NCBI GenBank assembly: GCA_024233835.1
Contig: JACKPC010000001.1
Span: 1,669,442-1,733,441, forward strand
Direction of reading: 5' to 3'
DNA from: Leptospiraceae bacterium
GTDB taxonomy: Bacteria; Spirochaetota; Leptospiria; Leptospirales; Leptospiraceae
DNA: 64,000 nt
Shown here: in pieces, positions 1-57,997 of the stretch
How the letters are laid out: every line of letters starts with the position of its first letter
Numbering within the stretch: the stretch's first letter is position 1
Program-made: the position numbers and the translations under genes
The notes under the pieces: generated by a model
Database searches by the model: none
The model's input: the letters and a program-made list of their open reading frames with translations, nothing else
What the model was told of the DNA's origin: nothing

Positions 1-319
1 TTTAATCAATTTAAATAAAAAGTAAAAACTCAGTGAAAGACGATTTATAGAAGTTAAGGTATATAGGAAAATAATAAATATTGAATATATAGAAATGAAA
101 AAATTTTTTTATAAGAAACTACTATAATATAAAGAGGGTCTATCATCAATTATAAAGCAATAGTTTTAATAGATTTTGCTACTTGACTTTTATTTTAAAA
201 AATATGAATAGGATTGGAAAATTATTAGCACAGAACTATTTGGCTCGCACTTTCCTCAGGAGTCTTCGTCGTTTCAGTTTTTGATCTGCCAGGGCAAATA
301 CTGGTTCTACTACCAAAAA

Positions 320-401
320 GGGATACACTAAGGAAACCTGCTGTAAGTCCTGCACTAATGGCGAAGCTTTTTAAAAATAGAAGTTTGAATCTGCGTTTCA
401 T
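320..401 (-). pseudogene. 5' remnant (about 27 codons, MKRRFKLLF...AGLTAGFLSVSL) of the secreted tail-fibre-like paralog family, then diverges into unrelated sequence
   Basis: Nucleotide identity to the 5' ends of the 2582..3274, 5421..6278 and 6352..7056 genes, including the conserved leader immediately upstream (402-470). The reading frame diverges after about 80 nt. Confidence 0.5.
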
Positions 402-477
402 TTTCCTGTCCTTGTTTGATTATTTGAGTATTACTATATATTACCTGTTTCTTATTCTTTGCCCTTTTTTCTCTTTA

Positions 478-600
478 AGGAGTAACGCTGAATGAGATAC
501 CATCCAGATTAATATGAGTAGCAGTAGTAGTAGCTTTTAAATCAAGATACACCCCCAAACTATAAACATTCAGTTTATGAGAAAAACCATGGAGGAAGCT
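478..600 (-). pseudogene. 3' remnant of the same paralog family (matches the last ~40 codons of the 6352..7056 copy)
   Basis: About 110 nt almost identical to 6352-6470 (ggagtaacRctgaaYga...cagtttatgagaaaaaccat). The match ends abruptly at ~600, next to the hipA stop. Confidence 0.45.
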
Positions 601-680
601 TTTACTCAGGCTCATTAGCAGAGGTTGAAACCTGCCGGTACTAGTATACTATGATTTTTGTATTTTTGTAAAGATTATTT

Positions 681-1961
681 TTATCCATTCGGGTTTTTAA
701 TTATTTGGGTATGCTTGCTTATTTCTTCAAAGATATATGGATTGAAAATCTGATTTGTTTCCAAAAGTATTTTATCAATTTTTTTTATTCCAGAGTTTAT
801 GCATATACTTTCCCATTCACTTTCTATTGTCTGAATCATTGCTCTGATTATCTCTATACTTTCCTCTTCTGATAGCAAATAGTTTTTAGATGAAGATAAA
901 CAATTAATTAATAGACTTCTATTATCCTGTCCGATGATTTTCATTGCCTGTCCTGCCATACTTCCACTTCTGGGTTGAGGACAAATATCATAAGCAGGTG
1001 TAAGCTTATATTTTTCTCCATCCCAAAAAGCAGCATGATTTCTGGCATGATCATCCGTATTCCCTACAAGAATATTAAAAACTAATCGTTTAAATAATTC
1101 TTTTAGAGTATTTTTAGGTGAAGAAAACTTATGGCGAATCAATAAAGCAAAATCTTCGTAGCTTGCATAACGTGCTTCCATTTCATGTAAATTTAAAAGA
1201 GTCAGGGCGGATAACATTAATTTTCTCGTCCATGATTCCCCAACCCTCTTTCTATCAAATCTTTTAACTAAAAGCACATCTTTATTTAACGAACTTTCTA
1301 ATTGAACATCAGCCACATCAATACCACATTTTTTAGCCAGCTTCATTACAATATATTCAGCTCGAATTATATCATAATAATCATCACTACTCGAAAATTT
1401 AGCGATGAATTTTTGATTAGAACTATTTATAAAAACTTTAGGTCTGGCTCCACCTATACTTGTTCCATGTAGCAAAGCCAATGTTAAATCATAATTAAGT
1501 TTTTTACCCTCTTCAATATAACTAACCGCTTCTAATAAATCTTTTAGTTTTATATCATTCTGTAATCTTGCGATATAATGTTCCGAACTTTCTTGAAAGT
1601 CCAATGCACCGATTCTATCTGAGCCGGACTTTAGAAAAAAAGTAATTTCATCCAGTTCATCATATTTATCTGAAATCATACCTGAGTTATAAAGTGCATG
1701 CAGAATGACTCTCCTTCCCCAGGCATCAGGGCTTGCATCTCGAAGACAAGAGGCTATGTTATGTTTGGGAGAAAAGGTTCCTTTTATCAATGGTAGCTCT
1801 TCGGGAAATATTGCAATAGCCTTTGGGTTGGAAAGGTAAGATTGACCGTAGGTAAAATAATATTTTTCATTTACATTTTGAACAACACCTGCAACAGTAG
1901 GACTTGCTTCTTGTGGTAAGAAAATCCAGACGAAGGCTTTATCCTTAGAAGTTGTCATCAA
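681..1961 (-). CDS. hipA: HipA-family serine/threonine kinase toxin (type II toxin-antitoxin)
   Basis: 426 aa. HipA C-terminal signature GNTDDHARNHAAFWDGEKYKLTPAYD (the family consensus is GNxDDHxKNFS...LSPAYD). It has an N-terminal HipA-N-like region and overlaps the upstream HTH gene by 17 nt, the usual hipBA arrangement. Confidence 0.85.
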   Translation of the reverse strand: MMTTSKDKAFVWIFLPQEASPTVAGVVQNVNEKYYFTYGQSYLSNPKAIAIFPEELPLIKGTFSPKHNIASCLRDASPDAWGRRVILHALYNSGMISDKYDELDEITFFLKSGSDRIGALDFQESSEHYIARLQNDIKLKDLLEAVSYIEEGKKLNYDLTLALLHGTSIGGARPKVFINSSNQKFIAKFSSSDDYYDIIRAEYIVMKLAKKCGIDVADVQLESSLNKDVLLVKRFDRKRVGESWTRKLMLSALTLLNLHEMEARYASYEDFALLIRHKFSSPKNTLKELFKRLVFNILVGNTDDHARNHAAFWDGEKYKLTPAYDICPQPRSGSMAGQAMKIIGQDNRSLLINCLSSSKNYLLSEEESIEIIRAMIQTIESEWESICINSGIKKIDKILLETNQIFNPYIFEEISKHTQIIKNPNG

Positions 1962-2268
1962 GGTTCACATCCTTTGAATGAACTTTAGAAGGTAAAAGAG
2001 AAAGAGTTTCTTTGTTCTGTTCCAATAACCTTAGAAATTCTGTTCTGGACTCAGTAAAAAGAGAAACCTGTAAAATAACTGCTGTTTCAAAATACTTTCC
2101 TATAGCAATGGAAGGCTCTCCTTTCAGTATACCCTGTAAAGTAGAACGAGCAACACCCAGTCTTTCTGCGAGTTCCTTTTGTGAAATCTTTTGTTTTCGT
2201 CTTTCTTTTTCTAAAATTTGTGAAAAAAGAGTAAGAGCTTCATTTGCTAAAGGAGATAAGTTTTTCAT
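1945..2268 (-). CDS. hipB: XRE-family HTH DNA-binding antitoxin (HipB-like)
   Basis: 107 aa with the HTH motif ISQKELAERLGVARSTLQGIL. It lies directly upstream of hipA and overlaps it. Confidence 0.75.
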   Translation of the reverse strand: MKNLSPLANEALTLFSQILEKERRKQKISQKELAERLGVARSTLQGILKGEPSIAIGKYFETAVILQVSLFTESRTEFLRLLEQNKETLSLLPSKVHSKDVNLDDNF

Positions 2269-2299
2269 AATGTGACCTATATATCAGTCATATTATAGG

Positions 2300-2480
2300 G
2301 TTATGTCCAAAATATCAAGCATATTTTTAATTACAGGTAGCTCCATTATCAAATGTAACCCAATTTGTGCCATTGCAGTAGCAGGGCTTACTCATCGAAG
2401 CTTGACAAGAGAGACACTCATCACACCAAGACAAAAGGACATGCCGATGATAAAAGGTTTCAAAAAGGCTTTATCTAGGA
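2300..2480 (-). pseudogene. Degraded 5' remnant of a tail-fibre-like paralog (residual ...SVSL... hydrophobic anchor) preceded by the family's conserved leader at 2481-2540
   Basis: The conserved leader sequence (tgtttgtctatttgagtatt...tacctgtttcttattcc) lies at 2488-2535. It is followed on the minus strand by ATG and a short ORF (MSFCLGVMSVSLVKLR*) that retains the SVSL segment of the family N-terminus. Confidence 0.3.
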
Positions 2481-2581
2481 ATGGTGGCTTGTTTGTCTAT
2501 TTGAGTATTCCAATATATTACCTGTTTCTTATTCCTTATCGCAATCAACATTGATGCTTATGGATATCCTCTCACTTCATA

Positions 2582-3274
2582 TCAAGGCGAGGTACTGAAC
2601 TGAATTACATCTAATTCAGCGTAGATTGAGTTCGCGCTAGCCCCGATTTTTACAGTACCATCAGTCCCAATAATATCCACCCGGTGGACGGCATTGCCGG
2701 TATGGGCAATCACCGGATAAGATACTACTCCATATGGCCTATAACCGGCAGGTAAGGTCAAAATAATATCATCGGTAGCAAAATTGCTGCCTGTTTTAAT
2801 GGCAAGGCCTCTCATATAGACTATATCCCCAATTTTTCGATATTGGCATTTGATCCAGCCGATGTTAGCACAAGATACCCCAGAACCTAAGGATGTTACA
2901 TCTATCCAGGGTACATTCCATGATATATTACCATTCACATCCAACTTTTCCGCTGGACTACTCGTCCCAATACCCACATTACCATCGGTATAAACCGCAT
3001 CTGTTGTGGTAGTTCCCTTCATCCAATTCGGGATACCTTCAATGGCAGTTTTGATAACATTGATACCGTTACCGATATTATTCAAATCGGTAGATGTCAG
3101 GGTTGAACCGGAAGTCCAGTCGGTTTTTACACTGACATTATTTACAGCGATTGCCAGAAGGGAGACACTAAGGAAACCTGCTGTAAGTCCTGCACCAATT
3201 ACCAGGCTTTTAAAAAAAAGTCTTATACTAATGGCGAAGTTTTTTATAAATAGAAGTTTGAATCTGCGTTTCAT
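2582..3274 (-). CDS. Secreted/membrane-anchored tail-fibre-like repeat protein, paralog A (230 aa)
   Basis: N-terminal signal/anchor MKRRFKLLFIK...AGLTAGFLSVSLLAIAV, then TDWTSGSTLTSTDLNNIGNGI and the DGNVGIGTSSPAEKLDVNG motif typical of phage tail-fibre-type domains. The C-terminal module (CQYRKIGDIVYMRGL...) is shared with 6352..7056. Confidence 0.6.
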   Translation of the reverse strand: MKRRFKLLFIKNFAISIRLFFKSLVIGAGLTAGFLSVSLLAIAVNNVSVKTDWTSGSTLTSTDLNNIGNGINVIKTAIEGIPNWMKGTTTTDAVYTDGNVGIGTSSPAEKLDVNGNISWNVPWIDVTSLGSGVSCANIGWIKCQYRKIGDIVYMRGLAIKTGSNFATDDIILTLPAGYRPYGVVSYPVIAHTGNAVHRVDIIGTDGTVKIGASANSIYAELDVIQFSTSP

Positions 3275-3345
3275 GTCCTTGTCCTTGTTTGACTATTTTA
3301 TTATTTTTATATAGTACCTGTTTCTTATTCATTGTCCTCCACATC
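3275..3345 (-). promoter_or_regulatory. Conserved leader/promoter region of the tail-fibre-like paralog family (AT-rich TATATAAAAATAAT box, AGGACAAGGAC RBS before the ATG)
   Basis: The same ~60 nt block lies immediately 5' of each copy or remnant (402-470, 2481-2540, 3275-3340, 6279-6340, 7057-7120). Confidence 0.35.
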
Positions 3346-3429
3346 CACTCTATGGGATAAGTCTCAGACCTGTTGTTACAATGATTGTGCTTTTCTGTTT
3401 TTTACTGCAAGGATATTTTTAATAGGGAA

Positions 3430-4007
3430 CTATATCATCCACCAGGGTAAAGCGAGAATTTCCTCGGTGATTAAATATGGTTTTTCGCAGGTACAAACTA
3501 TCAGTCCTTTTCCTTTTTCTTGTTCTGGAATAGATGAATAAAAAGAATGAATTCCACGTGCATCGTTTTTAGAAGGATAAGAAGTTAGCTTAACTTCAAT
3601 TGGGTAAAGTTTGCCTCTAAACTCTAAAATTAAGTCTACTTCAGCTCCTGCCTGCGTTCTATAATGATACAGTCCCAGAAATAAGGACATAGTTTTTAGG
3701 TTCTTTAATATTTCCATAACAACATACGTTTCAAATAGTTTTCCCTTCATGGGATGATTCATAATGCTTTCGGGTGAGCCTATTTTTTGAAGTTCACATA
3801 TTATACCTGTATCTGTAAAATATCCTTTTCTTTTCTTGCACCGGAAATATCCTGAACAGGATCAAAGGTAACCGTCTGTAAATTGCCCCTAAAAACTGTT
3901 TCTATCAGAGTAGATTTGCATACCTGTCTGGCTCCCTGCAAGCAAACCACCGGAAAATACTTAAAAAGTTTCTGTAATTTGGTTTCAATCAAGCGATTAG
4001 CATACAT
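3430..4007 (-). pseudogene. Disrupted AAA ATPase (AAA_14 + DUF4143 family): N-terminal Walker A piece (3801..4007) and C-terminal DUF4143 piece (3430..3762), with the middle missing
   Basis: The 68 aa ORF has ...LQGARQVCKSTL (Walker A-like). The 110 aa ORF has a DUF4143-like C-terminus (HYRTQAGAEVDLILEFRGKLYPIEVK). Both are homologous to the intact 396 aa neighbour at 4181..5371, but together they give under 180 aa with an intervening gap. Confidence 0.65.
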
Positions 4008-4180
4008 TTATCTTGCATTATGGCAGTTATAATAGCCATTTTGCAAGGTAAAAGAGCGAAACTGTCTTTTCAGAGGGAAATAGGAAAACAAGAACTTTTT
4101 GGTTTTTTATTTCTATGACAATACTGACTCGCAGCATAACCATTTTTTAGCAAAATTTATAGTAAAAATTAATATTATCC

Positions 4181-5371
4181 TTGAAATTTCGGATGCCATG
4201 TTCCTATAATTCAAGTATTATGAAAATTGAACGGATTCATGAAAAGCAAAATATTGAAAAGCTATTTAAGATATTTCCAGCCGTTAGTATATTGGGTCCG
4301 AGACAATGCGGAAAAACGACTCTTGCCAGAGATTTTGGTGCCGATCACTTCTTTGATCTGGAAAATCCTACTGATTGGCAAATCATGGAAAACCCTGAAC
4401 TAAATCTTGGCATTTTGGAAGGAACCATTGCGATTGACGAAATCCAGAGAAAGCCAGATTTATTTCCCATTCTAAGACACCTGATAGATACAAAGCCCAA
4501 ACAAAAATATTTACTGTTAGGAAGTGCGTCACCTCTACTTATCAAACAAACTTCAGATTCTCTAGCAGGAAGAATTGGGTATCACTCCTTAGGAGGTTTT
4601 AACCCAAAAGATTTAGCACAAGAAGATTTAAAACAATTGTGGGTTCGAGGCGGTTTTCCAAGAGCTTTTTTAGCTGATAGTGATGATAGCTCTTTTTTAT
4701 GGAGGGAAAACTATATTCGAACCTTTTTAGAGAGAGACATACCTCAACTTGGCATTCAAATTCCGGCAAATACGATACGTAGGTTCTGGACAATGCTTTC
4801 TCATTACCATTCCCAAATTTTAAACTATTCAGAGTTTTCCCGTTCCTTTGGAGTTTCCGACAAGACCGTTCGCAATTATTTAGAAATACTCGAAGGAACA
4901 TTTATGGTCAGGGTTCTACAACCCTGGTATGAGAACATAGGCAAAAGGTTAACAAAGAAACCAAAACTTTATTTCACCGATTCAGGAATCTACCATTACT
5001 TTTCATCTCTACAGGATTGGAATGACGTTATTTCTTCACCCCGCCTTGGTGCTTCTTACGAGGGTTATGTGGTGGAAAACATCATTCGCATTTCTGGAAT
5101 ACCGGAGAGAAATTTCTACTATTGGAGAACCCATGCAGGTTCAGAACTGGATTTGTTCTGGCAATACAAAGGTAAAAACTATGGAGTAGAAATCAAATAC
5201 CTCGATGCTCCCAAAACCACCAAGTCCATGCACTCTGCACTAAAAGACTTAAATCTGGAAAAACTGTATGTTATCTACCCGGGAAATAAAAGCTATTTAT
5301 TGGCAGAAAAAATCATTGTTCTACCCTTCCATGAAGTTAATAAAGAGTTATGGTTTGTTTCAAATGTGTAA
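4181..5371 (+). CDS. AAA+ ATPase, AAA_14 N-terminal domain + DUF4143 C-terminal domain (COG1373-like)
   Basis: 396 aa with Walker A GPRQCGKTTL, Walker B-like IAIDEIQ, and a C-terminus ending WRTHAGSELDLFW (DUF4143 pattern). The start may be an internal Met (MKIERI...). Confidence 0.85.
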   Translation: MKFRMPCSYNSSIMKIERIHEKQNIEKLFKIFPAVSILGPRQCGKTTLARDFGADHFFDLENPTDWQIMENPELNLGILEGTIAIDEIQRKPDLFPILRHLIDTKPKQKYLLLGSASPLLIKQTSDSLAGRIGYHSLGGFNPKDLAQEDLKQLWVRGGFPRAFLADSDDSSFLWRENYIRTFLERDIPQLGIQIPANTIRRFWTMLSHYHSQILNYSEFSRSFGVSDKTVRNYLEILEGTFMVRVLQPWYENIGKRLTKKPKLYFTDSGIYHYFSSLQDWNDVISSPRLGASYEGYVVENIIRISGIPERNFYYWRTHAGSELDLFWQYKGKNYGVEIKYLDAPKTTKSMHSALKDLNLEKLYVIYPGNKSYLLAEKIIVLPFHEVNKELWFVSNV

Positions 5372-5420
5372 CAAGCGATTCTTTCTTAATTGATCGCTTT
5401 TTTATTTCCTTTAAATTAAC

Positions 5421-6278
5421 TCAAAAACATAAAATAAACCAATTGATTCGACCTGTACCAGAAGTTCCACCTGATATATTAGTTTTAAAACTGTTGGTAT
5501 CAATACTTTCTGAACCAACAATGTTAAACGGATTTGCTGAAGGATGGCCATTTGTTGCAAAGATCATTTGTAGTAAAGGACAATTGATATTTCTATTATG
5601 GGTTATAGTATTAAATGAATCAGGAGCAATTGTTATAACAGCACTACCAGAATATGCCAACTTTAAAGATCCGTTCACTTCAAGCTTAGCTGTTGGAGTA
5701 GTTGTTCCAATACCGACATTGCCGGTATCATGCTCCATAAATAAAACATTAGTCCAAGTTGTGTCAGCATGAAATGCAAAAATGAAATCTTCTTTCTCGG
5801 TAGTGAATTGAGAGTTGAATCCTCGGGCTGAAAAATGCCAGCCGTATTTACCATTTTCTGAAATTGGCACACCGCCTGTCGGCCGGGTAGCAAAATTCAA
5901 AGATGATTGTGACTCTATTTCAGTGTTGCTGTTTTCAATTTGTATCCCACCATGACCCTTAACATTAGCATCAATAACTAATTTGTACCCGGGACTTGCT
6001 GTCCCGATGCCCACATTGCCATCGTTAAAAACTGCGTCTGTTGTGGTAGTTCCCTTTGTCCAGTTCGGAATGCCCTCAAGTGCTGTTTTGATAGCCTGGA
6101 TACCGCTACCGATGTTATTCAACTCGGTGGATGTCAGGCTGGAACCGGAAGTCCAGTCGGTTTTTACACTGACATTATTTACAGCGATTGCCAGAAGGGA
6201 TACACTTAAAAATCCTGCGGTAATTCCTGAACTAATAGCGAAGCTTTTTATAAATAGAAGTTTAAATCTGCGTTTCAT
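5421..6278 (-). CDS. Secreted tail-fibre-like repeat protein, paralog B (285 aa, two GNVGIGT motifs, distinct central/C-terminal module)
   Basis: Same N-terminal 70 aa module as the paralogs. Motifs DGNVGIGTASPGYKL and TGNVGIGTTTPTAKLEVNG. The upstream leader is conserved. Confidence 0.6.
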   Translation of the reverse strand: MKRRFKLLFIKSFAISSGITAGFLSVSLLAIAVNNVSVKTDWTSGSSLTSTELNNIGSGIQAIKTALEGIPNWTKGTTTTDAVFNDGNVGIGTASPGYKLVIDANVKGHGGIQIENSNTEIESQSSLNFATRPTGGVPISENGKYGWHFSARGFNSQFTTEKEDFIFAFHADTTWTNVLFMEHDTGNVGIGTTTPTAKLEVNGSLKLAYSGSAVITIAPDSFNTITHNRNINCPLLQMIFATNGHPSANPFNIVGSESIDTNSFKTNISGGTSGTGRINWFILCF

Positions 6279-6351
6279 GTCCTTGTCCTTGTTTGTCTAT
6301 TTGAGTATTACTATATATTACCTGTTTTTAATTCCTTACATGTTTTTCTAT

Positions 6352-7056
6352 TTAAGGAGTAACACTGAACGATATACCATCCAGATTAATATGAGTAGCA
6401 GTAGTATTAGCTTTTAAATCAAGATACACCCCATTACTATAAACATTCAGTTTATGAGAAAAACCATCAGTAGTTCCATGTGCCGGAACGGAAAAAGATA
6501 TTGCTTTAGGAGGTAAATATTCGGAAGGCAGGTTAATGATCATTTCATTATTAGCCAGGGCAGTGGATTTCGTTGCTAAACCCCTGAGGTAAACAATGTC
6601 TCCAATTTTTCGATACTGACAGCGTTGCCAGCCGCTATCTATAGTGCTGAAATTGCTGTAACCAGTTCCGAAGGTTGTTACATCTGTCCAGGGTACATTC
6701 CATGATATATTGCCGTTCACATCCAACTTTTGTGCTGGACTACTTGTCCCAATACCCACATTGCCACCGTTAAAAACTGCATCTGTTGTAGTAGTTCCCT
6801 TTGTCCAATTCGGGATACTTTCCAGCAAGGTTTTTATAGTATTGATACCGTTACCGATGTTATTCATCTCGGTGGCTGTCAGGCTGGAACCGGAAGTCCA
6901 GTCGGTTTTTACTGTGACGTTATTTACAGCGATTGCCAGAAGGGATACACTTAAGAATCCTGCTGTAAGTCCTGCACTGATTGCGAAGCTTTTTAAAAAA
7001 AGTCTTACACTAATGGCGAAGCTTTTTATAAACAAAAGTTTAAATCTGCGTTTCAT
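6352..7056 (-). CDS. Secreted tail-fibre-like repeat protein, paralog C (234 aa)
   Basis: N-terminal module nearly identical to the other paralogs. GNVGIGTSSPAQKLDVNGNISWNVPW motif. C-terminal module CQYRKIGDIVYLRGL... as in paralog A. Confidence 0.6.
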   Translation of the reverse strand: MKRRFKLLFIKSFAISVRLFLKSFAISAGLTAGFLSVSLLAIAVNNVTVKTDWTSGSSLTATEMNNIGNGINTIKTLLESIPNWTKGTTTTDAVFNGGNVGIGTSSPAQKLDVNGNISWNVPWTDVTTFGTGYSNFSTIDSGWQRCQYRKIGDIVYLRGLATKSTALANNEMIINLPSEYLPPKAISFSVPAHGTTDGFSHKLNVYSNGVYLDLKANTTATHINLDGISFSVTP

Positions 7057-7258
7057 GTCCTTGTCCTTATTTGAGTATTTTATTATTTTTCTATAGTACC
7101 TATTTCTTATTCATTGTCCTGCTGCACCGACGACTGAAAGGAGGAGAGCACAGCGTGGAGTGAGTTCAAAAAAAAATTTCGTTCTTAGAATTCAGATAGG
7201 CTTTCCTCATTAATTATATTATATATTTGATTTTTTCAGATAAATTAGAATACATATC

Positions 7259-7828: not shown

Positions 7829-8327
7829 AATTATTCCTTAATTAATTAAAGTTTATCAATGGTTCGTTTTCGGAACGAAGTGAAGGAAACACAATCTTAT
7901 ACCCTCTATAATAAAAGAAAAAATCATATGTATCCAAATTTTAAAGTGTCTATCTTCACTTTACTTCAAAAAAAATTTTATATTTCATGTAAATATTTAT
8001 GTAGTAAATACTCGTATGTTGCTAAAAGACCGCACTCAGCACTACGTCATGTACGCTTGGGTGTATCGGAGTTTTACCACATTTTTATATCTTACCAACA
8101 CTTATTTTAAAAAGACAACAAAAAAAGGAAAAGCGAAAGTGAAAAATTACTTTACTAAACACTATGCAAAACTCCTATCTACCGCCCTCTCAGGAATTCA
8201 TGATTTTAAAAGAATATATCACACAAAAAAGACAGAGTGAGGGTGATTGTTAGATACCGATTTTTAGCCTGGAGAAAAAGGAAGATTTACTTGACTTAAA
8301 ATCCGCATAGTATCAAACTATCCACCT

Positions 8328-8613
8328 ATGAACAGTGATTGTTTGGAGCTTTATCTTCCCCTTACATACAGAGTGAGCGATGATGTCTTGCAGGCAATTC
8401 AGCGATTAAACCATGACCTCATTATTGACCTGAGAAAAGAAAACGGTATCGGGATCCGGGTTACAGAGGACTTATCCGAACAAAAATATATTGAGCTAAG
8501 ATTTCCCGAAGGATTCCTACCTGCCGAAAGCTTTGAGGAGCTTACAAGTAACAGAGACAGGCTGCATTTTGAACAAAAAGGGGGAGACGATTTTTATAAA
8601 AATGGGAACAATT
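8328..8613 (+). pseudogene. Truncated membrane-anchored Uma2-like paralog (N-terminal ~90 codons only), interrupted by an IS insertion and an upstream frameshift
   Basis: Nearly identical at protein and DNA level to the first ~90 codons of 11970..12728 (MNSDCLELYLPLTxRVSDDVLQAIQRLNHDLIID...). An extra G at ~8580 shifts the frame. Homology stops at ~8613, where IS sequence begins. Confidence 0.6.
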
Positions 8614-8743
8614 TACAGCAATTCCCGCTTTGCTTGTAACAGGCAGATAAGGCTAAGATTTTTGGGTTTGCAGGGAATGCTTTCGTAAACTTTTTCATCA
8701 AAAATCGCTTGTACCTGTACAGGGATATAGTCTTTTTGACTAT

Positions 8744-9442
8744 ATGTCAGGCAAAAACGAGTTACACGCACGGGTAGATTTATCAGCAGATGGACTTTAT
8801 CAAGCAATTCGGGAGGAATTTTCTAAAATTCCAGACCACAGGGTCAATCCTTCGATTTCTCTAACAGATGCTTTGATGTCAGCCTTTGCTATCTTTTTTC
8901 AAAAGAACGCATCACTTCTTGAGTTTGAAAGAGAAAAAGTGAAGAATAAAAATCTTCAAAGTATATACAAGATTCAAGAGATACCTTCTGACACTCAAAT
9001 GAGAGAAATTGTTGATGAAGTTTCAACAGGAGCTTTCAGGAAAATATATAAAAACCTTTTTTCAAAACTTCAGCGTGGCAAGGTTCTCGAATCTTATCGT
9101 GTCCTTGATGATTATTATATTCTTTCCGGAGACGGAACCGGATTCTTCTCTTCAGAGAAAATTCATTGTGAATGCTGTCTTATAAAGAATAATAAAAGTG
9201 GAACTCTTTACCAGCATATGATGTATGGTGCCTGTATTGTGCATCCGGATAAGAAAGAAGTTATCCCTCTTATGTTTGAACCTATTACAAACGAAGATGG
9301 GAAAACAAAAAATGATTGTGAGTTAAACGCTTCTAAACGATTTATTGAAGATTTTAGAAGAGAGCATCCTCATTTAAAAACAATATTTGTAGAGGATTCT
9401 CTGTTTTCAAATGCTCCCCACATTGAATTACTGAGAGTATAA
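8744..9442 (+). CDS. DDE transposase, N-terminal part (split ORF)
   Basis: 232 aa ending at TAA. It continues conceptually in the next ORF, which is in a different frame. Confidence 0.65.
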   Translation: MSGKNELHARVDLSADGLYQAIREEFSKIPDHRVNPSISLTDALMSAFAIFFQKNASLLEFEREKVKNKNLQSIYKIQEIPSDTQMREIVDEVSTGAFRKIYKNLFSKLQRGKVLESYRVLDDYYILSGDGTGFFSSEKIHCECCLIKNNKSGTLYQHMMYGACIVHPDKKEVIPLMFEPITNEDGKTKNDCELNASKRFIEDFRREHPHLKTIFVEDSLFSNAPHIELLRV

Positions 9443-9464
9443 GCAAGTTGATAAGAAAGAGCAT

Positions 9465-9863
9465 ATGATTGCTTTTAGCTGGGTTACAGATATTGAAATT
9501 ACAAAAGAAAATGCTTATGAATTGATGCGAATCGCGAGAGCACGATGGAAGATAGAAAATGAAACCTTCAATACTCTAAAAAATCAGGGTTATCACTTTG
9601 AACATAATTATGGACATGGCAGTAAGGATTTGTCTAATAACTTTGCAACTCTTATGATACTTGCTTTTCTTGTAGATCAGATCCAACAATCAAGCTGTGC
9701 ATTATTCCGAAAAGCACTTGGGACTTTTCATGCAAAAAGATTGTTCTGGCAAAAGATAAGAAGCTTATTTGAAATATTTGAATTTTCATCTATGGAAGAG
9801 CTATTCCAGGCCATTGCTTATGGATTTAAAGCAAATATTTCTATAGGACAAAATTCATCATAG
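9465..9863 (+). CDS. DDE transposase, C-terminal part with the ARARWKIENETFNTLK motif (the YxxRWxIExxF signature of IS4/IS5-type transposases)
   Basis: 132 aa. It is separated from the N-terminal part by a stop and a frame change, so it is either inactivated or a sequencing frameshift. Confidence 0.65.
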   Translation: MIAFSWVTDIEITKENAYELMRIARARWKIENETFNTLKNQGYHFEHNYGHGSKDLSNNFATLMILAFLVDQIQQSSCALFRKALGTFHAKRLFWQKIRSLFEIFEFSSMEELFQAIAYGFKANISIGQNSS

Positions 9864-10755
9864 CGAGACTTTTAAAAACAGTGAAAGATTTTCTGAAGGA
9901 GCTATTCATTCATTTTTCCTTGTACTAATTTCACTATGATTTTATCTCAACTTTTACTATACATAAGTATTTTGGGTTTTTTTCCTCGAAGGAAATCCGG
10001 AAGTTATGGGTTAAAAAACAGGCTTAAAGAAGCCTTGTACTCTAAAGCGGGAATTGCTGATGCCAACACAGAGATAACACTGAGTTCCGGAAACAAGCCC
10101 CTTTATCTGCTTCTGAAGAACTAAAGTTAGTTATCAAGAAAAGTCAGGATCGACTTACTTCTAACAAACTATACAGAGAACAAAATATCACCTTAACCGA
10201 TACAGACATTAATAATCTAACTAATATTATGGTGGATATGAACCAATTAAATGATATTTCTGTAAATACTAACGACATTGTTCAGCTATTTGAATTAACA
10301 AAAGATGACCTCAGTGCCTTGAAAATTGCTTCGACAATGAGCTTAAAGCAGATAAATACTTTAGCGACAACAGCTTGTGTTCTTTCTGAAAATAGAGGTG
10401 ATATATGGAGTTGGTTATATAATGTTATTTATTTGATAACACACTGTGCAGGTTTATGATAGGATTACTATATGAAGATATTAAAATATACAATTCCTTT
10501 CATACTTTTGCTTCTGATGCAGTGTTATAATGGTAAGCAAGTTGATGATACTCTGAAGTATTTTTGTTCAGCTAATTTTTTGAATGCACAGACACAGAAA
10601 GAGAAAGATTTTATACTTCTTTCATGTGTAAACTATTTTTTGGACAGGCAAAGATTGAATGATTCAAAAAAAATAAAGTAAAAAGCACTGGTATTGCTAA
10701 GAGCTTGTGATTCCACTTCCAAACAAGCTCTTGGGTAGTGGGTAGAATTCTAAAA

Positions 10756-10810
10756 TATGAAACGCTTACATTCTGCTATCGATTATGTTGCCCCTTACGA
10801 CGTGATAAAC
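10756..10810 (+). pseudogene. Tiny remnant of an IS3-family transposase C-terminus (KRLHSAIDYVAPYDV)
   Basis: The motif resembles the conserved IS3 OrfB C-terminal ...HSSLGYLSP.E.. signature. Only about 18 codons are recognisable. Confidence 0.3.
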
Positions 10811-11054
10811 TGTAAACGAGAGAGAATACTTTCTGAAAGAAGAGAGAAGCTAAAGTTGGGTAAAGAGAAGAGAAAGCAATTTTTTCAGACAAGCCCTAAA
10901 AAGAAAGGGTCTTGTCTTACTCAAATCCCGTAATGGGAGTTTTAAGAAAGTGCAGTTTTGTAAATTTGCACTGCGACTTTATGCGAAAATACTATTACTT
11001 GTTTAAATTTTTACCCACCTTATTTCGGGACTAAAAAAGTCCGGTTTTGAAAGA

Positions 11055-11102
11055 TGAAAAAGCTTGACTTAAAATCCGCATAGTATCAAAATTTGTTCTG
11101 TT
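11055..11102 (+). promoter_or_regulatory. Conserved upstream element with a TTGACT -35-like hexamer shared by three Uma2-like paralogs
   Basis: cTTGACTtaaaatccgcatagtatcaaa occurs at 8290-8318, 11063-11091 and 11930-11958 (one substitution in the last copy), each about 35 nt before the ATG. Confidence 0.35.
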
Positions 11103-11870
11103 ATGGAAACAGAGTGTGTTGAACTGCAAATTCCCCGGCAGTATAGGCTTACAGATGAAGTAATCAAAATCCTGCAAATTCTAAACCATGACTTAATCAT
11201 AGATTTTGTAAAAGAAAATGGTGTGATTATAAAGCCAAAAACCCCGGAATTTGCAGGCCAGAAATACATCGATCTGAAGTTTCCTGAGGACTTTTTTCAT
11301 CCGGAAAACTTCGATGAACTTTATGAAGCCAATGAGCACCGGTTTCGGTTTGAACGGGTAGGGGAGACGATACGAATAAAAATGGGTTTTGGAAGTATAA
11401 TTGGTTTAATCACAGCAGCGATTGTTAGCTCCCTTTACATCTGGGCAAAAAAGACAAAGTCAGGAAGAGTGCGTTCAGATCAATCCGAATTTGAGTTTTA
11501 TAATGAAGAAACAGAAAGCCTTGAAAAAAGAATTCCCGATGTTTCTTATATTAGTTTTGAAAAGGTAAATGAAAAGGAACAAAAATCATGGGGCACAGGA
11601 AAGATTAAAGTTGCACCTACTCTGAGTATTGAAATAGTTTCTTCCAAATATGGCCTGAAGCCCGCTCTCTGGAAAATGCAACATGTATGGATGCAGTTCG
11701 GAACTGATATTGGAGTTGTAGTCTGTCCCTTTTCGAAAAAGCTGTACATTTTTGAGAAAGGTAAATCGAACCATATAGAACAAAGCATTTATCACAAGTT
11801 TACCCATACCCTCCTTCCCGACTATGAAGGTGATTTCAGCGAATATGTAGATGAAATAAGTGAATCCTGA
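11103..11870 (+). CDS. Membrane-anchored Uma2-family (PD-(D/E)XK-like) protein, paralog 1 (255 aa)
   Basis: N-terminal ~95 aa domain, one predicted TM helix (IIGLITAAIVSSLYIWA), and a C-terminal region with Uma2-like motifs (VSYISF...APTLSIEIVSSKYGLKPALWKMQ..MQFGTDIGVVVCPFSKKLYIF). Confidence 0.6.
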   Translation: METECVELQIPRQYRLTDEVIKILQILNHDLIIDFVKENGVIIKPKTPEFAGQKYIDLKFPEDFFHPENFDELYEANEHRFRFERVGETIRIKMGFGSIIGLITAAIVSSLYIWAKKTKSGRVRSDQSEFEFYNEETESLEKRIPDVSYISFEKVNEKEQKSWGTGKIKVAPTLSIEIVSSKYGLKPALWKMQHVWMQFGTDIGVVVCPFSKKLYIFEKGKSNHIEQSIYHKFTHTLLPDYEGDFSEYVDEISES

Positions 11871-11969
11871 GACTTGTATCTTAGGGATTAGGATGTGCTC
11901 AGGTTAAAGCCGGTTTTGAAAGATGAAAAAGCTTGACTATAAATTCGCATAGTATCAAACTATCCACCT

Positions 11970-12728
11970 ATGAACAGTGATTGTTTGGAGCTTTATCTTC
12001 CCCTTACATGCAGAGTGAGCGATGATGTCTTGCAGGCAATTCAACGATTAAACCATGACCTCATTATTGACCTGAGAAAAGAAAACGGTATCGGGATCCG
12101 GGTTACAGATGATTTATCCGAACAAAAATATATTGAGCTAAGATTTCCCGAAGGATTCATTCCTGCCGAAAACTTTGAGGAGCTTACAAGTAACAGAGAT
12201 AAGCTGTACTTTGAACAAAAAGGGGAGACGATTTTTATAAAAATGGGAACGATTTATACAATTGGTTTAATTACTATGGCAATCGGAGCCTCCCTGTACA
12301 TGTGGGCCAAAAAAAATAAAACCGGTAGAGTTTTACCCGAAAATTCTACCTATCAGTTGAGCGATTCTAAAACCGGTAAAACCGAAATCAGGATGGCAGA
12401 TATTTCCTATATCAGTTATGGGAAAGCTTCCGAGTCGGAGCAAAAAAAATGGGGGAAAAATTGTCCCATCGCTCCTACACTCAGCATTGAAATAGTTTCT
12501 TCCAAATATGGCCTGAAGCCCGCTCTCTGGAAAATGCAATATGTATGGATGCAGTTCGGAACTGATATTGGAGTTGTAGTCTGTCCCTTTTCGAAAAAGC
12601 TGTACATTTTTGAGAAAGGTAAATCGAACCATATAGAACAAAGCATTTATCACAAGTTTACCCATACCCTCCTTCCCGACTATGAAGGTGATTTCAGCGA
12701 ATATGTAGATGAAATAAGTGAATCCTGA
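11970..12728 (+). CDS. Membrane-anchored Uma2-family protein, paralog 2 (252 aa)
   Basis: Same architecture as paralog 1. The last ~245 nt are identical to paralog 1 apart from one substitution, while the 5' two-thirds are diverged. Confidence 0.6.
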   Translation: MNSDCLELYLPLTCRVSDDVLQAIQRLNHDLIIDLRKENGIGIRVTDDLSEQKYIELRFPEGFIPAENFEELTSNRDKLYFEQKGETIFIKMGTIYTIGLITMAIGASLYMWAKKNKTGRVLPENSTYQLSDSKTGKTEIRMADISYISYGKASESEQKKWGKNCPIAPTLSIEIVSSKYGLKPALWKMQYVWMQFGTDIGVVVCPFSKKLYIFEKGKSNHIEQSIYHKFTHTLLPDYEGDFSEYVDEISES

Positions 12729-16930: not shown

Positions 16931-18190
16931 ATGGAAATAAACTCGGAAGATTTACTTTATATCGAAGACATCAGCAAAAGGGCGAAAAAAGCTTCTCGCT
17001 TTTTAAGAAGTCTGAAAACCGGGGATAAAAACCGTTTTTTAAGAAGTCTCGCCCGGTCTATCAGGGAAAATCAAAGCTTTCTAATTCAGGAAAACCAGAA
17101 GGATCTGGAAGATGGGAAAAAGAAAGCTCTATCATCCAGTCTTTTAGATAGGCTTTTATTGAATGAAAGTCGTATAGAAGCCCTGGCGAAATCTGTCGAG
17201 GATATTGCAAATCTGCCCGATCCGGTGGGAGAAGTTGTGCGGGGGACCCAGCTTCCTAACGGTCTGGAGCTTATCACAAAACAGGTTCCGATAGGAGTTG
17301 TTCTGGTAATTTATGAATCCAGACCCAATGTGACAATTGATGTAGGAGCTCTCTGCTTTAAATCCGGCAATGTGGGAATCCTGAGAGGTGGAAGCGAGGC
17401 CATCCATTCCAATCGGGCCTTAGCTGAAATTTTTCGGAAAAGCCTCGACGACTTAGGCCTGGAAAAAGATTCTCTTATTCTAATCGAGAGAACTGACCGT
17501 TCCCTGGTGATTCCCCTTTTAAAGCAGGTTCAGTTTATAGATCTGGTTGTGCCGAGAGGTGGAGAGGGCCTGATTCGTTTTGTGAGCCAGAACTCGGAAA
17601 TTCCGGTAGTAAAACATGATAAAGGTGTTTGTAATCTCTTTGTCGATAGCTCGGCAATTCCCGAACGAACGATAGAAGTCGTTATAAATTCAAAAGTTCA
17701 AAGACCCGGTGTCTGTAATGCCCTCGAAAACCTGATTATTCATAAAGATTATCCCCGTACAAAGGAGCTTCTTTCGGCTTTACAGGCAAAAGGAGTAGAA
17801 TTATATGTGGATGAGCCCCTGAGAAATCTTTTACCGGGTTTGAAAGAAGCCGATGAGGAAGCATATAAAACCGAGTACCTTGACCTTAAGCTGTCGGTAA
17901 AAACGGTTTCTTCTCTAATGGAAGCCATTGATTTTATTGAAACCTATTCTTCCGGTCATACAGAAGCGATTTTATCAGAGAGTTATGAGAATATAGAGGA
18001 ATTTACTTCTTCTATAGACTCGGCGGCGGTTTTCGTAAACTGTTCTACTCGTTTTCACGATGGAGGTGAGTTTGGACTCGGAGCAGAGGTGGGTATTTCT
18101 ACCGGAAAGCTTCATGTTCGCGGGCCTATGGGGCTTATGCATCTGACAACGACCAAGACCGTACTGAAGGGAAGAGGGCAGGTTCGGTAG
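16931..18190 (+). CDS. proA: Gamma-glutamyl phosphate reductase
   Basis: 419 aa aldehyde dehydrogenase-type protein with ProA signatures ([28 protein letters not shown]). It lies immediately after proB. Confidence 0.9.
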
Positions 18191-55428: not shown

Positions 55429-55446
55429 GATGAGAGTCCGATATCT

Positions 55447-55475
55447 ATGATATGCTTTTTCATTTAATAAAGCAA
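55447..55475 (-). promoter_or_regulatory. Putative sigma70-type promoter of the lipoprotein gene (minus strand TTGCTT-N17-TATCAT)
   Basis: The same block is conserved upstream of the three lipoprotein gene copies/remnants (55429-55505, 60080-60135, 61277-61350). Confidence 0.3.
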
Positions 55476-55526
55476 GAATAAAAATATAGTTTACAGCAAT
55501 TATGAACAGTTTAGGCTACTACTAAG

Positions 55527-56285
55527 ATGAAACCGCCGGAAGAAAAAGAGACCTATCACCTAATTTTCCCCGAACAATACCCGCTACCTCCTCGCATTCA
55601 GGAACTTTCGAGGCTCAATACCGAACTAAGTTTATCGTATCAAGAAAATACATTGATTATCCGGGAAGCTCCCCCCTACGCCTTTCGAGACTATGAAAAC
55701 TTTCTTTTACGCCTTCCGGGTTTTACTGAAGAACTATTCTTTCAACTCGAAGAACTGAACGATGAAACACATTTTGAATTTGATGATAACGAGGAGGTCA
55801 TTGTTAAAATGTCTACTTTTGCATTAATAAGTTTATTAACAGGTGCTGTTTTAACTTCCCTTTTTATCTGGGCAAAGTCCAGAAAGAGCGGCAGGGTGTA
55901 CACAGAAGACGGAGGCTATATGCTCGAAAGCCCGAACGGAAAACATCTTCATAGAATGGCGGATATTTCTTATATAGCCTACAGTAAAGCTTCCCCGGAA
56001 GAACAGGCTAGCTGGTATTCCCGCATTCCCATAGCTCCGAGTCTTGCGGTTGAAGTTGTATCGGCTAAAAGAGGTTTAAAACCGGCACTGAAAAAAATGA
56101 AAGATATCTGGATGGCAAACGGCACTGAACTCGGGCTTGTTATCTGTCCTTTCAGTAAGAAAATCTATATATTTGAAATATCTAAAGAATCCTATACCGA
56201 ACAGAGTATATTCGAGGATTTCACCCATCCCGACCTCCCCGGCTACAAAGAAAACTTCAGCGAATATGTAGAAAAGATAAAATAG
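55527..56285 (+). CDS. Membrane-anchored Uma2-family (PD-(D/E)XK-like) protein, paralog 3
   Basis: Same architecture as 11103/11970: N-terminal domain, TM helix (FALISLLTGAVLTSLFIWA), and C-terminal ADISYIAY...APSLAVEVVSAKRGLKPALKKM...GTELGLVICPFSKKIYIFE. Confidence 0.6.
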   Translation: MKPPEEKETYHLIFPEQYPLPPRIQELSRLNTELSLSYQENTLIIREAPPYAFRDYENFLLRLPGFTEELFFQLEELNDETHFEFDDNEEVIVKMSTFALISLLTGAVLTSLFIWAKSRKSGRVYTEDGGYMLESPNGKHLHRMADISYIAYSKASPEEQASWYSRIPIAPSLAVEVVSAKRGLKPALKKMKDIWMANGTELGLVICPFSKKIYIFEISKESYTEQSIFEDFTHPDLPGYKENFSEYVEKIK

Positions 56286-56363
56286 CTCTAAAACCTAAAA
56301 CCGCTTGAAATATAGAATCCGGGAATAGTTAGTTTCATAATTATAAGGCGTGCTAAAGTTTAC

Positions 56364-56680: not shown

Positions 56681-56709
56681 ATTTGGATAATTCCAAAGTT
56701 GGAGGAAAA

Positions 56710-57888: not shown

Positions 57889-57997
57889 ACTATCATATCG
57901 TATATTTGTCTACAATAATATATGTTTCAATCGTATAGGTAAGCATTTTATCTACTTTATTCTTACTCCATAATTCAAAAATTAATTTCCATTTACA

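What the first reader, a model, noticed from the sequence alone, without database searches (positions are those of the whole stretch)
241..7120. Decaying tandem array of secreted tail-fibre-like paralogs with a shared promoter and 5' module, swapped C-terminal modules, and orphan 5'/3' cassettes
Three full genes share a near-identical ~200 nt 5' module and a ~60 nt upstream leader. Their C-terminal halves differ: paralogs A and C share the CQYRKIGDIVY(M/L)RGL module, and B carries a different double-GNVGIGT module. Orphan 5' fragments and a 3' fragment of the same family are scattered nearby. Near-identical 70-100 nt tracts (e.g. 3100-3170, 6130-6230, 6890-6990) are recombination substrates. 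This layout resembles cassette-based surface-protein variation loci more than a simple duplication.
Basis: partly seen in the sequence, partly recalled or inferred. Interest (0 to 1): 0.55.

Follow-up and report, generated by a model that had tools for sequence, protein, structure and literature searches.

The report
Decaying array of phage-fibre-like adhesin genes
A Leptospiraceae chromosome carries a partly degraded tandem array of small membrane-anchored fibre proteins built from phage tail-fibre parts, with a shared front end and exchangeable binding tips; this resembles the known "mosaic adhesive trimer" fibres of Bdellovibrio and is not a programmed cassette-switching locus.

Summary

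The "orphan" pieces are deletion relics. Window 318-590 is one 89% copy of the C/B junction, and 2488-2538 is a leader with no gene. hipBA and DUF4143 ATPase genes interrupt the array.

Synonymous divergence is 0.35-0.58 in the 5' module but saturated in the tips, so the 5' module has been homogenised or exchanged.

Related Leptospiraceae carry same-strand arrays of 2-6 genes with this N-module. Most tips checked are Peptidase_S74; one is Collar.

No expression-site/silent-cassette layout, recombinase or reverse transcriptase is present.

Two short-read contigs join A's 5' end to B's 3' end exactly within the 59-nt tract. This is either real recombination or a low-coverage assembly chimera.

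Verdict: a new variant of a known kind, of moderate interest.

The parts
6352..7056 (-). Gene C (234 aa): signal-anchor with an 11-codon tandem duplication, N-module, one GNVGIGT capping loop (6745-6765), and a receptor-binding-protein-type head (res ~120-234, 6355-6702; QYRKIGDIVYLRGL at 6577-6618).
   Evidence: (pLDDT ~90 for res 120-234); precomputed PF27455 YomR_C (weak)
7057..7126 (-). Type-1 leader upstream of C. It is A-rich and unstructured and ends in AAGGACAAGGAC before the ATG.
   Evidence: 94% identical to A's leader and 94% to D's
5421..6278 (-). Gene B (285 aa): signal-anchor without the duplication, N-module, two GNVGIGT capping loops 99 aa apart (6000-6020, 5703-5723), and a distinct ~85-aa C-terminal tip (5424-5696).
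   Evidence: The tip has 25 homologous clusters among 1.84e9 representatives, all C-terminal and after a capping loop, with no Pfam family. The AF2 model was unusable (pLDDT 40).
6279..6351 (-). 73-nt C-B intergenic region containing the type-2 leader of B. No terminator-like site was found, so C and B may be co-transcribed.
2582..3274 (-). Gene A (230 aa): same architecture as C. GNVGIGT at 2963-2983, head at 2585-2920, QYRKIGDIVYMRGL at 2804-2845.
   Evidence: (identical to P0002, Leptospiraceae MAG H7A25_07585)
3275..3344 (-). Type-1 leader of A.
3105..3163 (-). 59-nt tract in A that is identical to 6142-6200 in B. It is the crossover site of the A5'::B3' hybrid contigs, and k=31 Logan contigs break here.
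6142..6200 (-). 59-nt tract in B identical to 3105-3163 in A. The two tracts bound a 3037-nt direct-repeat unit.
2488..2538 (-). Orphan type-2 leader 43 nt downstream of A's stop. Homology ends at the ribosome-binding site and the gene body is gone.
   Evidence: 89% to B's leader
318..590 (-). Composite relic, an 89% copy of the C/B junction (6195-6467). It holds the last 37 codons of a C-like gene (478-588), a type-2 leader (402-474) and the first ~28 codons of a B-like gene (318-401). The ORFs 225-401 and 475-615 are truncated or artefactual.
   Evidence: head_C res 80-116 at 94.6% aa identity
681..2268 (-). hipB (1945-2268) and hipA (681-1961) toxin-antitoxin pair. It occupies the space between the orphan leader and the C-like 3' relic. 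The inference is that it replaced gene bodies of the array.
   Evidence: (HipA_C 8.7e-51; HTH_3)
4181..5371 (+). Intact DUF4143/AAA_14 ATPase gene between B and A, on the opposite strand. It is part of the 3037-nt unit.
   Evidence: DUF4143 3.2e-44; PADLOC candidate PDC-S01, 4.5e-79
3430..4007 (-). Two pieces of a degraded second DUF4143 ATPase gene (68-aa and 110-aa ORFs) upstream of A.
   Evidence: a related relic follows paralog D at another locus

Best explanation
What it is. This is a partly degraded tandem array of small MAT-like (mosaic-adhesive-trimer-like) fibre genes in the chromosome of an uncultured Leptospiraceae bacterium.

Gene architecture. Each gene encodes, in order:
- an N-terminal signal-anchor;
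- a lineage-specific conserved N-module of about 80 aa;
- one or two GNVGIGTxxPxxKL beta-helix capping loops of the kind found in S74-type phage fibres and Bdellovibrio MAT proteins;
- an exchangeable C-terminal tip.
A, C and a fourth paralog D elsewhere in the genome carry a siphophage receptor-binding-protein head. B carries a different conserved tip that has no Pfam family.

Likely function (inferred). The proteins probably form envelope-anchored trimeric fibres whose tips bind glycans or other surface ligands.

Likely history (inferred).
- The array grew by tandem duplication of a two-gene unit: a type-1 leader with a head-type gene, followed by a type-2 leader with a B-type gene. The three units are (C,B), (A, orphan leader) and (C' relic, B' relic).
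- Homologous recombination or gene conversion kept the 5' modules similar while the tips diverged or were swapped.
- Insertions of hipBA and DUF4143 ATPase genes, together with deletions, destroyed at least three copies.

Variation arises through ordinary homologous recombination among paralogs, not through a programmed cassette mechanism.

Shown: the architecture, the fold of the head, homology of the stalk to MAT fibres, the layout of the relics, the dS contrast, and arrays in relatives. Inferred: trimerisation, location in the envelope, ligand binding, and the order of historical events.
For: - Architecture and paralogy.
- Stalk. The profile hits solved Bdellovibrio MAT fibres 8ol4, 8ond (Bd2133), 8oml and 8on4 at E 8e-9 to 2e-5. 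B hits 8ol4 and MyRF through the capping loop. The published MAT capping-loop consensus and the tip-swapping concept are in PMC10769870.
- Anchor. There is a 22-residue uncharged stretch with Kyte-Doolittle(19) of 1.9-2.2, and AF2 predicts a helix over residues 3-43. Relatives have 30-70 residues before the hydrophobic segment.
- 5' module younger than the tips. dS is 0.35-0.58 in the module and above 1.8 or saturated in the tips. A/C identity drops sharply from 93% to 37% at about 2890. The mosaic site pattern gives p=2.6e-7.
- Two-gene unit. Leaders fall into type 1 (A, C, D; 90-94% identical) and type 2 (B, relic, orphan; 84-89%), with 71-83% identity between types.
- Family context. Same-strand arrays of 2-6 N-module genes occur in other Leptospiraceae and Spirochaetota genomes. 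Of ten relatives scanned, five have Peptidase_S74 tips, one Collar, one a weak Gp53-like_C match and three nothing.
- Chromosomal, non-prophage surroundings. The N-module was not found in IMG/VR.
Against: - No experimental data exist for this lineage. Trimerisation, surface exposure and ligand binding are extrapolated from phage RBPs and Bdellovibrio MATs.
- Residues 44-119 (the N-module) were modelled with low confidence, and B's model failed.
- The proteins are 230-285 aa, against about 1000 aa for Bdellovibrio MATs. Whether the N-module is related to the ~130-aa MAT N-domain was not tested.
- In a diderm, an uncleaved signal-anchor would leave the fibre in the periplasm rather than on the surface.
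- The low dS of the 5' module could partly reflect codon or RNA-level constraint rather than conversion.
Confidence: 0.72

Rival explanations
1. Programmed cassette-type antigenic or adhesin variation. One or more expressed genes are repeatedly rewritten by recombination with silent partial copies, as in vls, pilE/pilS or tprK.
For: - Conserved 5' tracts flank divergent tips.
- Partial copies are present.
- An A5'::B3' junction appears in two contigs.
- There is a mosaic signal in the 5' module.
Against: - All three full genes have their own leader and start codon.
- The partial copies hold only conserved sequence (5' module, leader) or 37 C-terminal codons. They have no conserved tract on the far side of a variable region, so they cannot donate a tip by double crossover.
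- They coincide with the hipBA insertion and deletion boundaries.
- No recombinase, invertase or reverse transcriptase was found in the ORFs scanned.
- Independent assemblies of the locus differ at only 3 sites.
Confidence: 0.07
2. Remnant of a prophage or tailocin. The genes are leftover phage tail-fibre genes with no cellular role.
For: - PHROG tail and tail-fibre hits.
- RBP head fold.
- The head domain is present in viral contigs.
- Neighbours include TA, DUF4143, Uma2 and IS-like genes, and the region is visibly decaying.
Against: - No capsid, terminase, tail-tube or baseplate gene was found among the 29 window ORFs scanned, which include ArgRS, Obg and other housekeeping genes.
- Every copy has an N-terminal signal-anchor, which virion fibres lack.
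- The N-module was not found in 2.9 million viral contigs. It is conserved in chromosomal arrays of several Leptospiraceae, including cultured Leptospira ognonensis.
- dN/dS is 0.2-0.3 in the N-module and 0.17-0.21 between head-type tips where dS could be estimated (A-C, C-D), indicating purifying selection.
Confidence: 0.08
3. Sub-question on the hybrid contigs. The A5'::B3' contigs (L004, L034) are low-coverage assembly chimeras through the 59-nt identical tract, not real molecules.
For: - The contigs are identical to the window apart from 1-5 SNPs, and they carry the 4610 allele of a MAG that has the normal arrangement.
- In the same sample as L034, the C contig dead-ends 79 nt before the tract (L003).
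- No full-length A gene was found in those two samples by exact-sequence look-up.
- These observations fit k-mer dropouts that leave an unbranched wrong path at k<=59.
- Logan k=31 contigs break in the tract.
Against: - Two independent samples and assemblies give the same junction and the same circular permutation of the 3037-nt unit.
- One of them is a k141 contig, and 141-mers span the 59-nt tract.
- A loop contig that outlasts its flanks suggests the unit has higher copy number than the flanks.
- The reciprocal normal junctions were assembled without trouble in a third sample (L002, L037).
Confidence: 0.55

Closest known systems
Bdellovibrio bacteriovorus MAT (mosaic adhesive trimer) fibre superfamily (Caulton et al. 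2024, PMC10769870; PDB 8ol4, 8ond/Bd2133, 8oml, 8on4, 8ojn)
   Same: - Exported phage-tail-fibre-like proteins encoded in the chromosome as a multigene family.
- A conserved N-terminal end for retention and diversified C-terminal tips, with evidence of tip exchange.
- GNVGIGTxxPxxKL-type capping loops. B's two loops are 99 aa apart, against about 96 aa in Bd3182.
- Tips are either Peptidase_S74 (in Leptospiraceae relatives) or non-S74 (in the window).
- Direct sequence match of the stalk.
   Different: - Size is 230-285 aa, against roughly 600-1000+ aa.
- The N-terminus is a signal-anchor followed by an ~80-aa lineage-specific module, not a signal peptide followed by a ~130-aa beta-rich domain. 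Relatedness of the two was not tested.
- The genes are arranged in tight same-strand tandem arrays with shared leaders.
- The A/C/D tip is a lactococcal/Listeria-phage RBP head. No Bdellovibrio MAT structure appears among the listed structural matches.
- The host is a member of the Leptospiraceae, a family not known for predation, so prey recognition is not an obvious role.
Siphophage receptor-binding proteins (Lactococcus phages p2, TP901-1, bIL170; Listeria phage PSA gp15)
   Different: - Sequence identity is only 13-21%.
- The head here is fused to a membrane anchor and a MAT-type stalk, not to a baseplate-docking shoulder domain.
- It is not part of a virion gene module.
Cassette-based surface variation loci (Borrelia vlsE/vls, Neisseria pilE/pilS, Treponema tprK)
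   Same: Paralogous sequences with conserved tracts flanking divergent segments, and partial copies nearby.
   Different: - There is no single expression site.
- The partial copies lack variable segments bounded on both sides by conserved tracts.
- The partial copies are explained by insertion and deletion.
- No population-level tip replacement was observed.
Pfam PF27455 YomR_C (C-terminal domain of SPbeta prophage protein YomR)
   Same: A precomputed weak hit of gene C's product to this family, consistent with a phage tail-protein tip.
   Different: The model is absent from the local Pfam copy, where A, B and C have no hit at E<=0.1. Membership could therefore not be re-tested.

Membership tests
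MAT (mosaic adhesive trimer) superfamily | Beta-helix fibre segments bounded by capping loops with the consensus V-G-G/N-pi-x-x-P-x-x-x-L | tested here: met
   GNVGIGTxSPxxKL is present once in A and C and twice in B. The profile and B hit MAT structures 8ol4, 8ond, 8oml and 8on4 through this region. The consensus is taken from PMC10769870. The motif here has one extra residue relative to the printed consensus.
MAT (mosaic adhesive trimer) superfamily | C-terminus is either a Peptidase_S74 chaperone/protease or an alternative (NS74) adhesive tip, exchangeable between paralogs | tested here: met
   The window genes have two non-S74 tips: an RBP head and B's conserved tip. Among N-module relatives scanned in other Leptospiraceae, five have PF13884 Peptidase_S74 tips at E 1e-15 to 1e-20, one has Collar, and one has a weak Gp53-like_C match.
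MAT (mosaic adhesive trimer) superfamily | Conserved beta-rich N-terminal domain of ~130 aa immediately after the signal peptide | not tested
   The window proteins have a conserved ~80-aa N-module after the hydrophobic segment. The AF2 confidence for this module was low.
MAT (mosaic adhesive trimer) superfamily | Trimeric fibre displayed on the cell surface | not testable with these tools
   No multimer prediction or experiment was possible. Only a monomer model was made.
Lactococcal/Listeria siphophage RBP head domain | Beta-sandwich head fold at the extreme C-terminus | tested here: met
Lactococcal/Listeria siphophage RBP head domain | Part of a phage baseplate: an N-terminal shoulder or baseplate-attachment domain, encoded in a tail module | tested here: not met
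   The N-terminus is a signal-anchor plus N-module. No phage structural genes were found in the ORFs scanned, and the N-module is absent from IMG/VR.
Cassette-type antigenic variation locus | One expression site plus promoterless silent cassettes that carry variable segments flanked by conserved recombination tracts | tested here: not met
   Three full genes each have a leader and an ATG. The relics carry only conserved 5' sequence or 37 C-terminal codons.
Cassette-type antigenic variation locus | Sequence variation of the expressed copy among closely related isolates or within populations | tested here: inconclusive
   Window, L001, L002, L003 and L037 are 99.8-100% identical, with 3 differences in 1-7120. 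The only variant is the A5'::B3' junction in L004 and L034, which may be an assembly chimera.
Diversity-generating retroelement target | Nearby reverse transcriptase and a template repeat with adenine-specific differences from a 3' variable repeat | tested here: not met
   No RT was found among the 29 window ORFs scanned. The repeats lie in the 5' module, and their differences are not adenine-specific.

The most novel reading that the evidence does not exclude
The 3037-nt segment bounded by the identical 59-nt tracts of A and B may really exist in natural populations as an excised circle or a tandem amplification. The segment comprises B's tip, the PDC-S01-like DUF4143 ATPase gene, the ATPase pseudogene and A's leader with its 5' end. 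If so, metagenomes have caught homologous recombination creating a new chimeric fibre gene (A's leader and anchor joined to B's stalk and tip) while mobilising a candidate defence gene. More broadly, Leptospiraceae would carry a previously undescribed signal-anchored 'mini-MAT' family whose tandem arrays act as a tip-shuffling nursery.
Probability: 0.35. Interest if true: 0.55.

Novelty: new variant of a known kind. Interest (0 to 1): 0.4.

Why it matters
MAT fibres were defined only in 2024, in a predatory bacterium, as a way to recognise many prey surfaces. The same building plan appears here in Leptospiraceae, a family not known for predation: a conserved retention end, capping-loop stalk and swappable phage-derived tips. 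The versions here are miniaturised, signal-anchored and arranged in tandem arrays. This suggests the plan is a general bacterial strategy for diversifying envelope-bound ligand binders.

The locus also offers a concrete, testable case of how tips are exchanged. It has a defined 59-nt crossover tract, a clear contrast in synonymous divergence between the 5' module and the tips, and a candidate recombinant already present in public data.

For annotation, it gives a working assignment to a set of 'hypothetical proteins' in Leptospiraceae, and it flags B's tip as a conserved domain with no Pfam family.

Tried and rejected
- Pfam and NCBIfam on A, B and C gave no hits. PADLOC gave no hit for the fibre genes.
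- The AF2 model of B failed (mean pLDDT 40), so no fold search was run for B.
- A k-mer-seeded search of B's tail found only GNVGIGT-motif matches. This suggested an orphan or decayed tip. The exhaustive HMMER search overturned that idea with 25 homologous clusters.
- The idea that the leader is a structured RNA was rejected. Fold z-scores are 0.05 to 1.8, no better than shuffles, and Rfam has no match in the whole window.
- A sigma-70 promoter in the leader was not detected by the consensus scan.
- DGR and invertase mechanisms were rejected: no RT or recombinase was found, and the repeat differences are not A-specific.
- Short ORFs between array genes in L009 looked like a partner gene. They share only 19-23% identity and have no Pfam hit, so they were treated as spurious.
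- An exact 26-nt search of JGI metagenome contigs for more strains found nothing.
- Literature searches (Leptospira + tail fiber + paralog; YomR) found nothing relevant.
- The third homology search, using the N-module profile, returned only short unnamed proteins and added little.
- An attempt to use the 4610 SNP to assign the hybrid contigs to a separate lineage failed, because the allele is shared with a MAG that has the normal arrangement.

Full report
**1. What is in the sequence**

All relevant genes lie on the minus strand: C 6352-7056 (234 aa), B 5421-6278 (285 aa) and A 2582-3274 (230 aa). The repeat finder reports three families:
- a 300-nt family (2880-3179, 5917-6216, 6662-6961; 73-86% identity);
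- a 121-nt family across start codon and leader, in four copies;
- a 51-nt leader family in five copies (411-461, 2488-2538, 3284-3334, 6288-6338, 7066-7116).

The protein alignment shows a common N-terminus up to GNVGIGT. After that, A and C share the CQYRKIGDIVY(M/L)RGL module. B continues differently and contains a second GNVGIGT motif (positions).

- The shared module is 85-93% identical rather than near-identical. The longest perfect tracts are 59 nt (A/B, 3105-3163 = 6142-6200), 36 nt (B/C) and 26 nt (A/C).
- The two 'orphan' pieces at 225-615 are one piece. Window 318-590 is an 89% copy of the C-3'end / intergenic leader / B-5' junction at 6195-6467. Its C-like part encodes the last 37 residues of C at 94.6% identity.

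A further orphan is a leader only (2488-2538). It lies 43 nt after A's stop, and homology ends at the ribosome-binding site.

**2. Surroundings and source**

- Between the orphan leader and the C-like relic lies a hipB/hipA pair (HTH_3; HipA_C 8.7e-51).
- Between B and A lie an intact DUF4143/AAA_14 ATPase gene on the other strand and two pieces of a degraded second copy. The intact ATPase matches the PADLOC candidate defence family PDC-S01 at 4.5e-79.
- The rest of the window is ordinary chromosome: ArgRS, Obg, an aminotransferase, M23 peptidases and others. None of the 29 ORFs scanned is a phage structural gene, reverse transcriptase or recombinase.
- A is identical to a hypothetical protein of an uncultured Leptospiraceae MAG that sits on a 2.05-Mb contig.
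- The same locus occurs in a second MAG (L001) and in short-read contigs L002, L003 and L037 at 99.8-100% identity. Across 1-7120, L001 differs from the window at three sites. The fragments are therefore not assembly artefacts, but the available strains are too close to test for variation.
- A fourth full paralog, D (P0133, 220 aa), lies elsewhere in the genome.

**3. What the proteins are**

Pfam and NCBIfam give nothing for A, B or C. PHROGs gives weak tail-fibre and minor-tail hits. A precomputed weak PF27455 YomR_C hit exists for C.

*The head of A, C and D.*
- An AF2 model of C has pLDDT ~90 for residues 120-234, a helix over residues 3-43, and low confidence in between.
- Foldseek against the PDB puts the C-terminal domain with the receptor-binding-protein heads of Listeria phage PSA and Lactococcus phages TP901-1, bIL170 and p2, followed by adenovirus and reovirus fibre heads.
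- BFVD returns phage tail and minor tail proteins at E ~1e-7.
- The same sequence motif occurs in 17 uncultivated viral contigs.

*The stalk.* A profile of the region preceding the head hits solved Bdellovibrio 'cell wall surface anchor family' structures at E 8e-9 to 2e-5: 8ol4, 8ond (Bd2133), 8oml and 8on4. These are the MAT (mosaic adhesive trimer) fibres of Caulton et al. 2024 (PMC10769870). That paper defines the family as follows:
- trimeric phage-like fibres;
- a conserved N-terminal domain;
- beta-helix segments bounded by capping loops (V-G-G/N-pi-x-x-P-x-x-x-L);
- S74 or non-S74 tips that have been swapped between paralogs.

GNVGIGTxxPxxKL is that capping loop. B's two copies are 99 residues apart, comparable to the two loops of Bd3182. 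B also weakly hits MyRF through the same motif.

*B's tip.* It first looked like an orphan, and its AF2 model failed. An exhaustive search then found 25 homologous clusters, always C-terminal and always after a capping loop. One of them (P0247) carries the Leptospiraceae N-module. None has a Pfam family for the tip. B is therefore intact and carries a rare conserved tip with no Pfam family.

*The N-terminus.* It has a 22-residue uncharged stretch with Kyte-Doolittle(19) of 1.9-2.2. Relatives have 30-70 residues ahead of it. It therefore looks like a signal-anchor rather than a short cleaved signal peptide.

**4. The family elsewhere**

A scan of species-representative genomes with the N-module found relatives in other Leptospiraceae (including Leptospira ognonensis), in a Spirochaetota MAG and in a Nitrospirae MAG.

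tblastn shows same-strand tandem arrays: 4 copies in L006, 6 in L009, 4 in L012, 3 each in L011 and L013, and 2 in L014. The N-module is well conserved.

Of ten relatives scanned, five have Peptidase_S74 tips, one has Collar, one has a weak Gp53-like_C match and three have nothing. None has the A/C head. Repeat analysis of those arrays shows 5' modules at 70-98% identity and 3' segments shared in other combinations.

The N-module was not found in IMG/VR. The window locus is thus a small, decayed instance of a lineage-wide pattern: arrays of anchored fibre genes with a common front and varied phage-derived tips.

**5. How the locus evolved**

- Nei-Gojobori estimates give dS 0.35-0.58 for the N-module among A, B, C and D. 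In the C-terminal modules dS is above 1.8 or saturated. dN/dS is 0.2-0.35 in the N-module.
- A/C identity falls from 93% to 37% within 30 nt near 2890.
- Within the 5' module, the sequence that is the odd one out changes along the alignment. B is odd in the leader and at the 3' edge, while A or C is odd in the centre (Fisher p=2.6e-7).
- Together these indicate that the 5' module has a more recent common ancestry than the tips, through gene conversion, unequal crossover or module exchange.
- Leaders fall into two types that follow gene type: type 1 for the head genes A, C and D (90-94% identical) and type 2 for B, the relic and the orphan (84-89%), with 71-83% identity between types.
- The simplest history is tandem duplication of a two-gene unit (head gene plus B-type gene) into (C,B), (A, B'') and (C', B'). 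B'' and most of C' and B' were then lost, with hipBA now in their place. DUF4143 genes were inserted between B and A. This history is an inference.
- The leader is unstructured, matches no Rfam family and has no sigma-70 consensus site. Only 73 nt without a terminator separate C and B.

**6. A possible live recombinant**

Two contigs from different samples are circular permutations of the 3037-nt unit between the two 59-nt tracts: L004 (ERZ28655569, 2994 nt) and L034 (ERZ27309295, a k141 contig, 2907 nt).
- Each runs from the ATPase N-terminus through the pseudogene pieces and A's leader and 5' end, across the tract, into B's 3' part, and on to the ATPase C-terminus. They lack 43 and 130 nt of the full circle.
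- They match the window exactly on both sides of the tract, apart from 1-5 SNPs.
- This is what an excised circle or a tandem duplication from A x B recombination would look like.
- It could also be a low-coverage chimera. In L034's sample, the C contig dead-ends 79 nt before the tract. No full-length A gene was found in either sample by exact-sequence look-up. The contigs carry the allele of a MAG with the normal arrangement.
- I rate the real and artefact readings at roughly 45:55. Read mapping would decide.

**7. Verdict**

The cassette-variation analogy is not supported. There is no expression-site/silent-cassette layout, the fragments are deletion relics without variable segments, and there is no dedicated recombination machinery.

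The closest known system is the Bdellovibrio MAT superfamily. The capping-loop and tip criteria are met. The N-domain criterion was not tested, and trimer formation and surface display cannot be tested here.

The differences make it a new variant of a known kind: small size, a signal-anchor, tight tandem arrays, an RBP-head tip, and a host lineage not known to be predatory. Interest is moderate at 0.4. It would be higher if the recombinant junction proves real.

Noticed in passing
window 8290-12260: A cluster of Uma2 (PF05685) putative endonuclease paralogs. The window carries about 3.3 kb (8624-11931) that is absent from the otherwise 99.8% identical MAG contig L001. The extra DNA includes an unassigned 232-aa ORF (8744-9442) and is flanked by 294-nt direct repeats (8290-8583 / 11932-12225, 95% identical). 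This is a strain-level insertion or duplication polymorphism.
   Followed up: partly
window 53068-60079: Two paralogous Big_5 + Lcl_C surface-protein genes (53068-55062 and 57998-60079, minus strand) have another DUF4143/AAA_14 ATPase gene (56710-57888) between them. This is the same 'DUF4143 gene between surface-protein paralogs' layout seen between B and A.
   Followed up: no
L035 1102-1232 (paralog D locus) vs window 3922-4053: Paralog D, at a different chromosomal locus, is followed by a relic of a DUF4143 gene start and its upstream region. The relic is 84% identical to the degraded copy upstream of A. This hints that fibre genes and DUF4143 genes have moved or duplicated together.
   Followed up: partly
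window 5424-5696 (B residues 195-285): B's tip is a conserved ~85-aa C-terminal domain with no Pfam family. Its consensus is ...YSGSTVITLxPNAxNTITHNLGI...IFATNGHxxANxFxVxG...NSFxFxAxGGxAGxARINWxIL. It is found in only 25 clusters among 1.84 billion representatives, always after a GNVGIGT capping loop.
   Followed up: partly
window 6979-7011 (C) and 3197-3229 (A): There is an 11-codon tandem duplication inside the signal-anchor of A and C (LFIKSFAIS | VRLFLKSFAIS in C). It is absent from B, D and the relic. It contains a T7-T8 homopolymer run.
   Followed up: no
L009 1-7300 (Leptospiraceae MAG HK-STAS-SPIR-4): The six-gene fibre array in this relative lies downstream of genes for a caspase-domain (Peptidase_C14) protein, a CarboxypepD_reg protein and a DUF4384 protein. 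It is interrupted by an rve-family IS transposase (17069-17902).
   Followed up: no
window 1-225 / L001 11117-13552: Just beyond the window start, downstream of the relic, lies an 811-aa predicted lipoprotein gene (lipobox-like FANC) that is unrelated to the fibre family.
   Followed up: no
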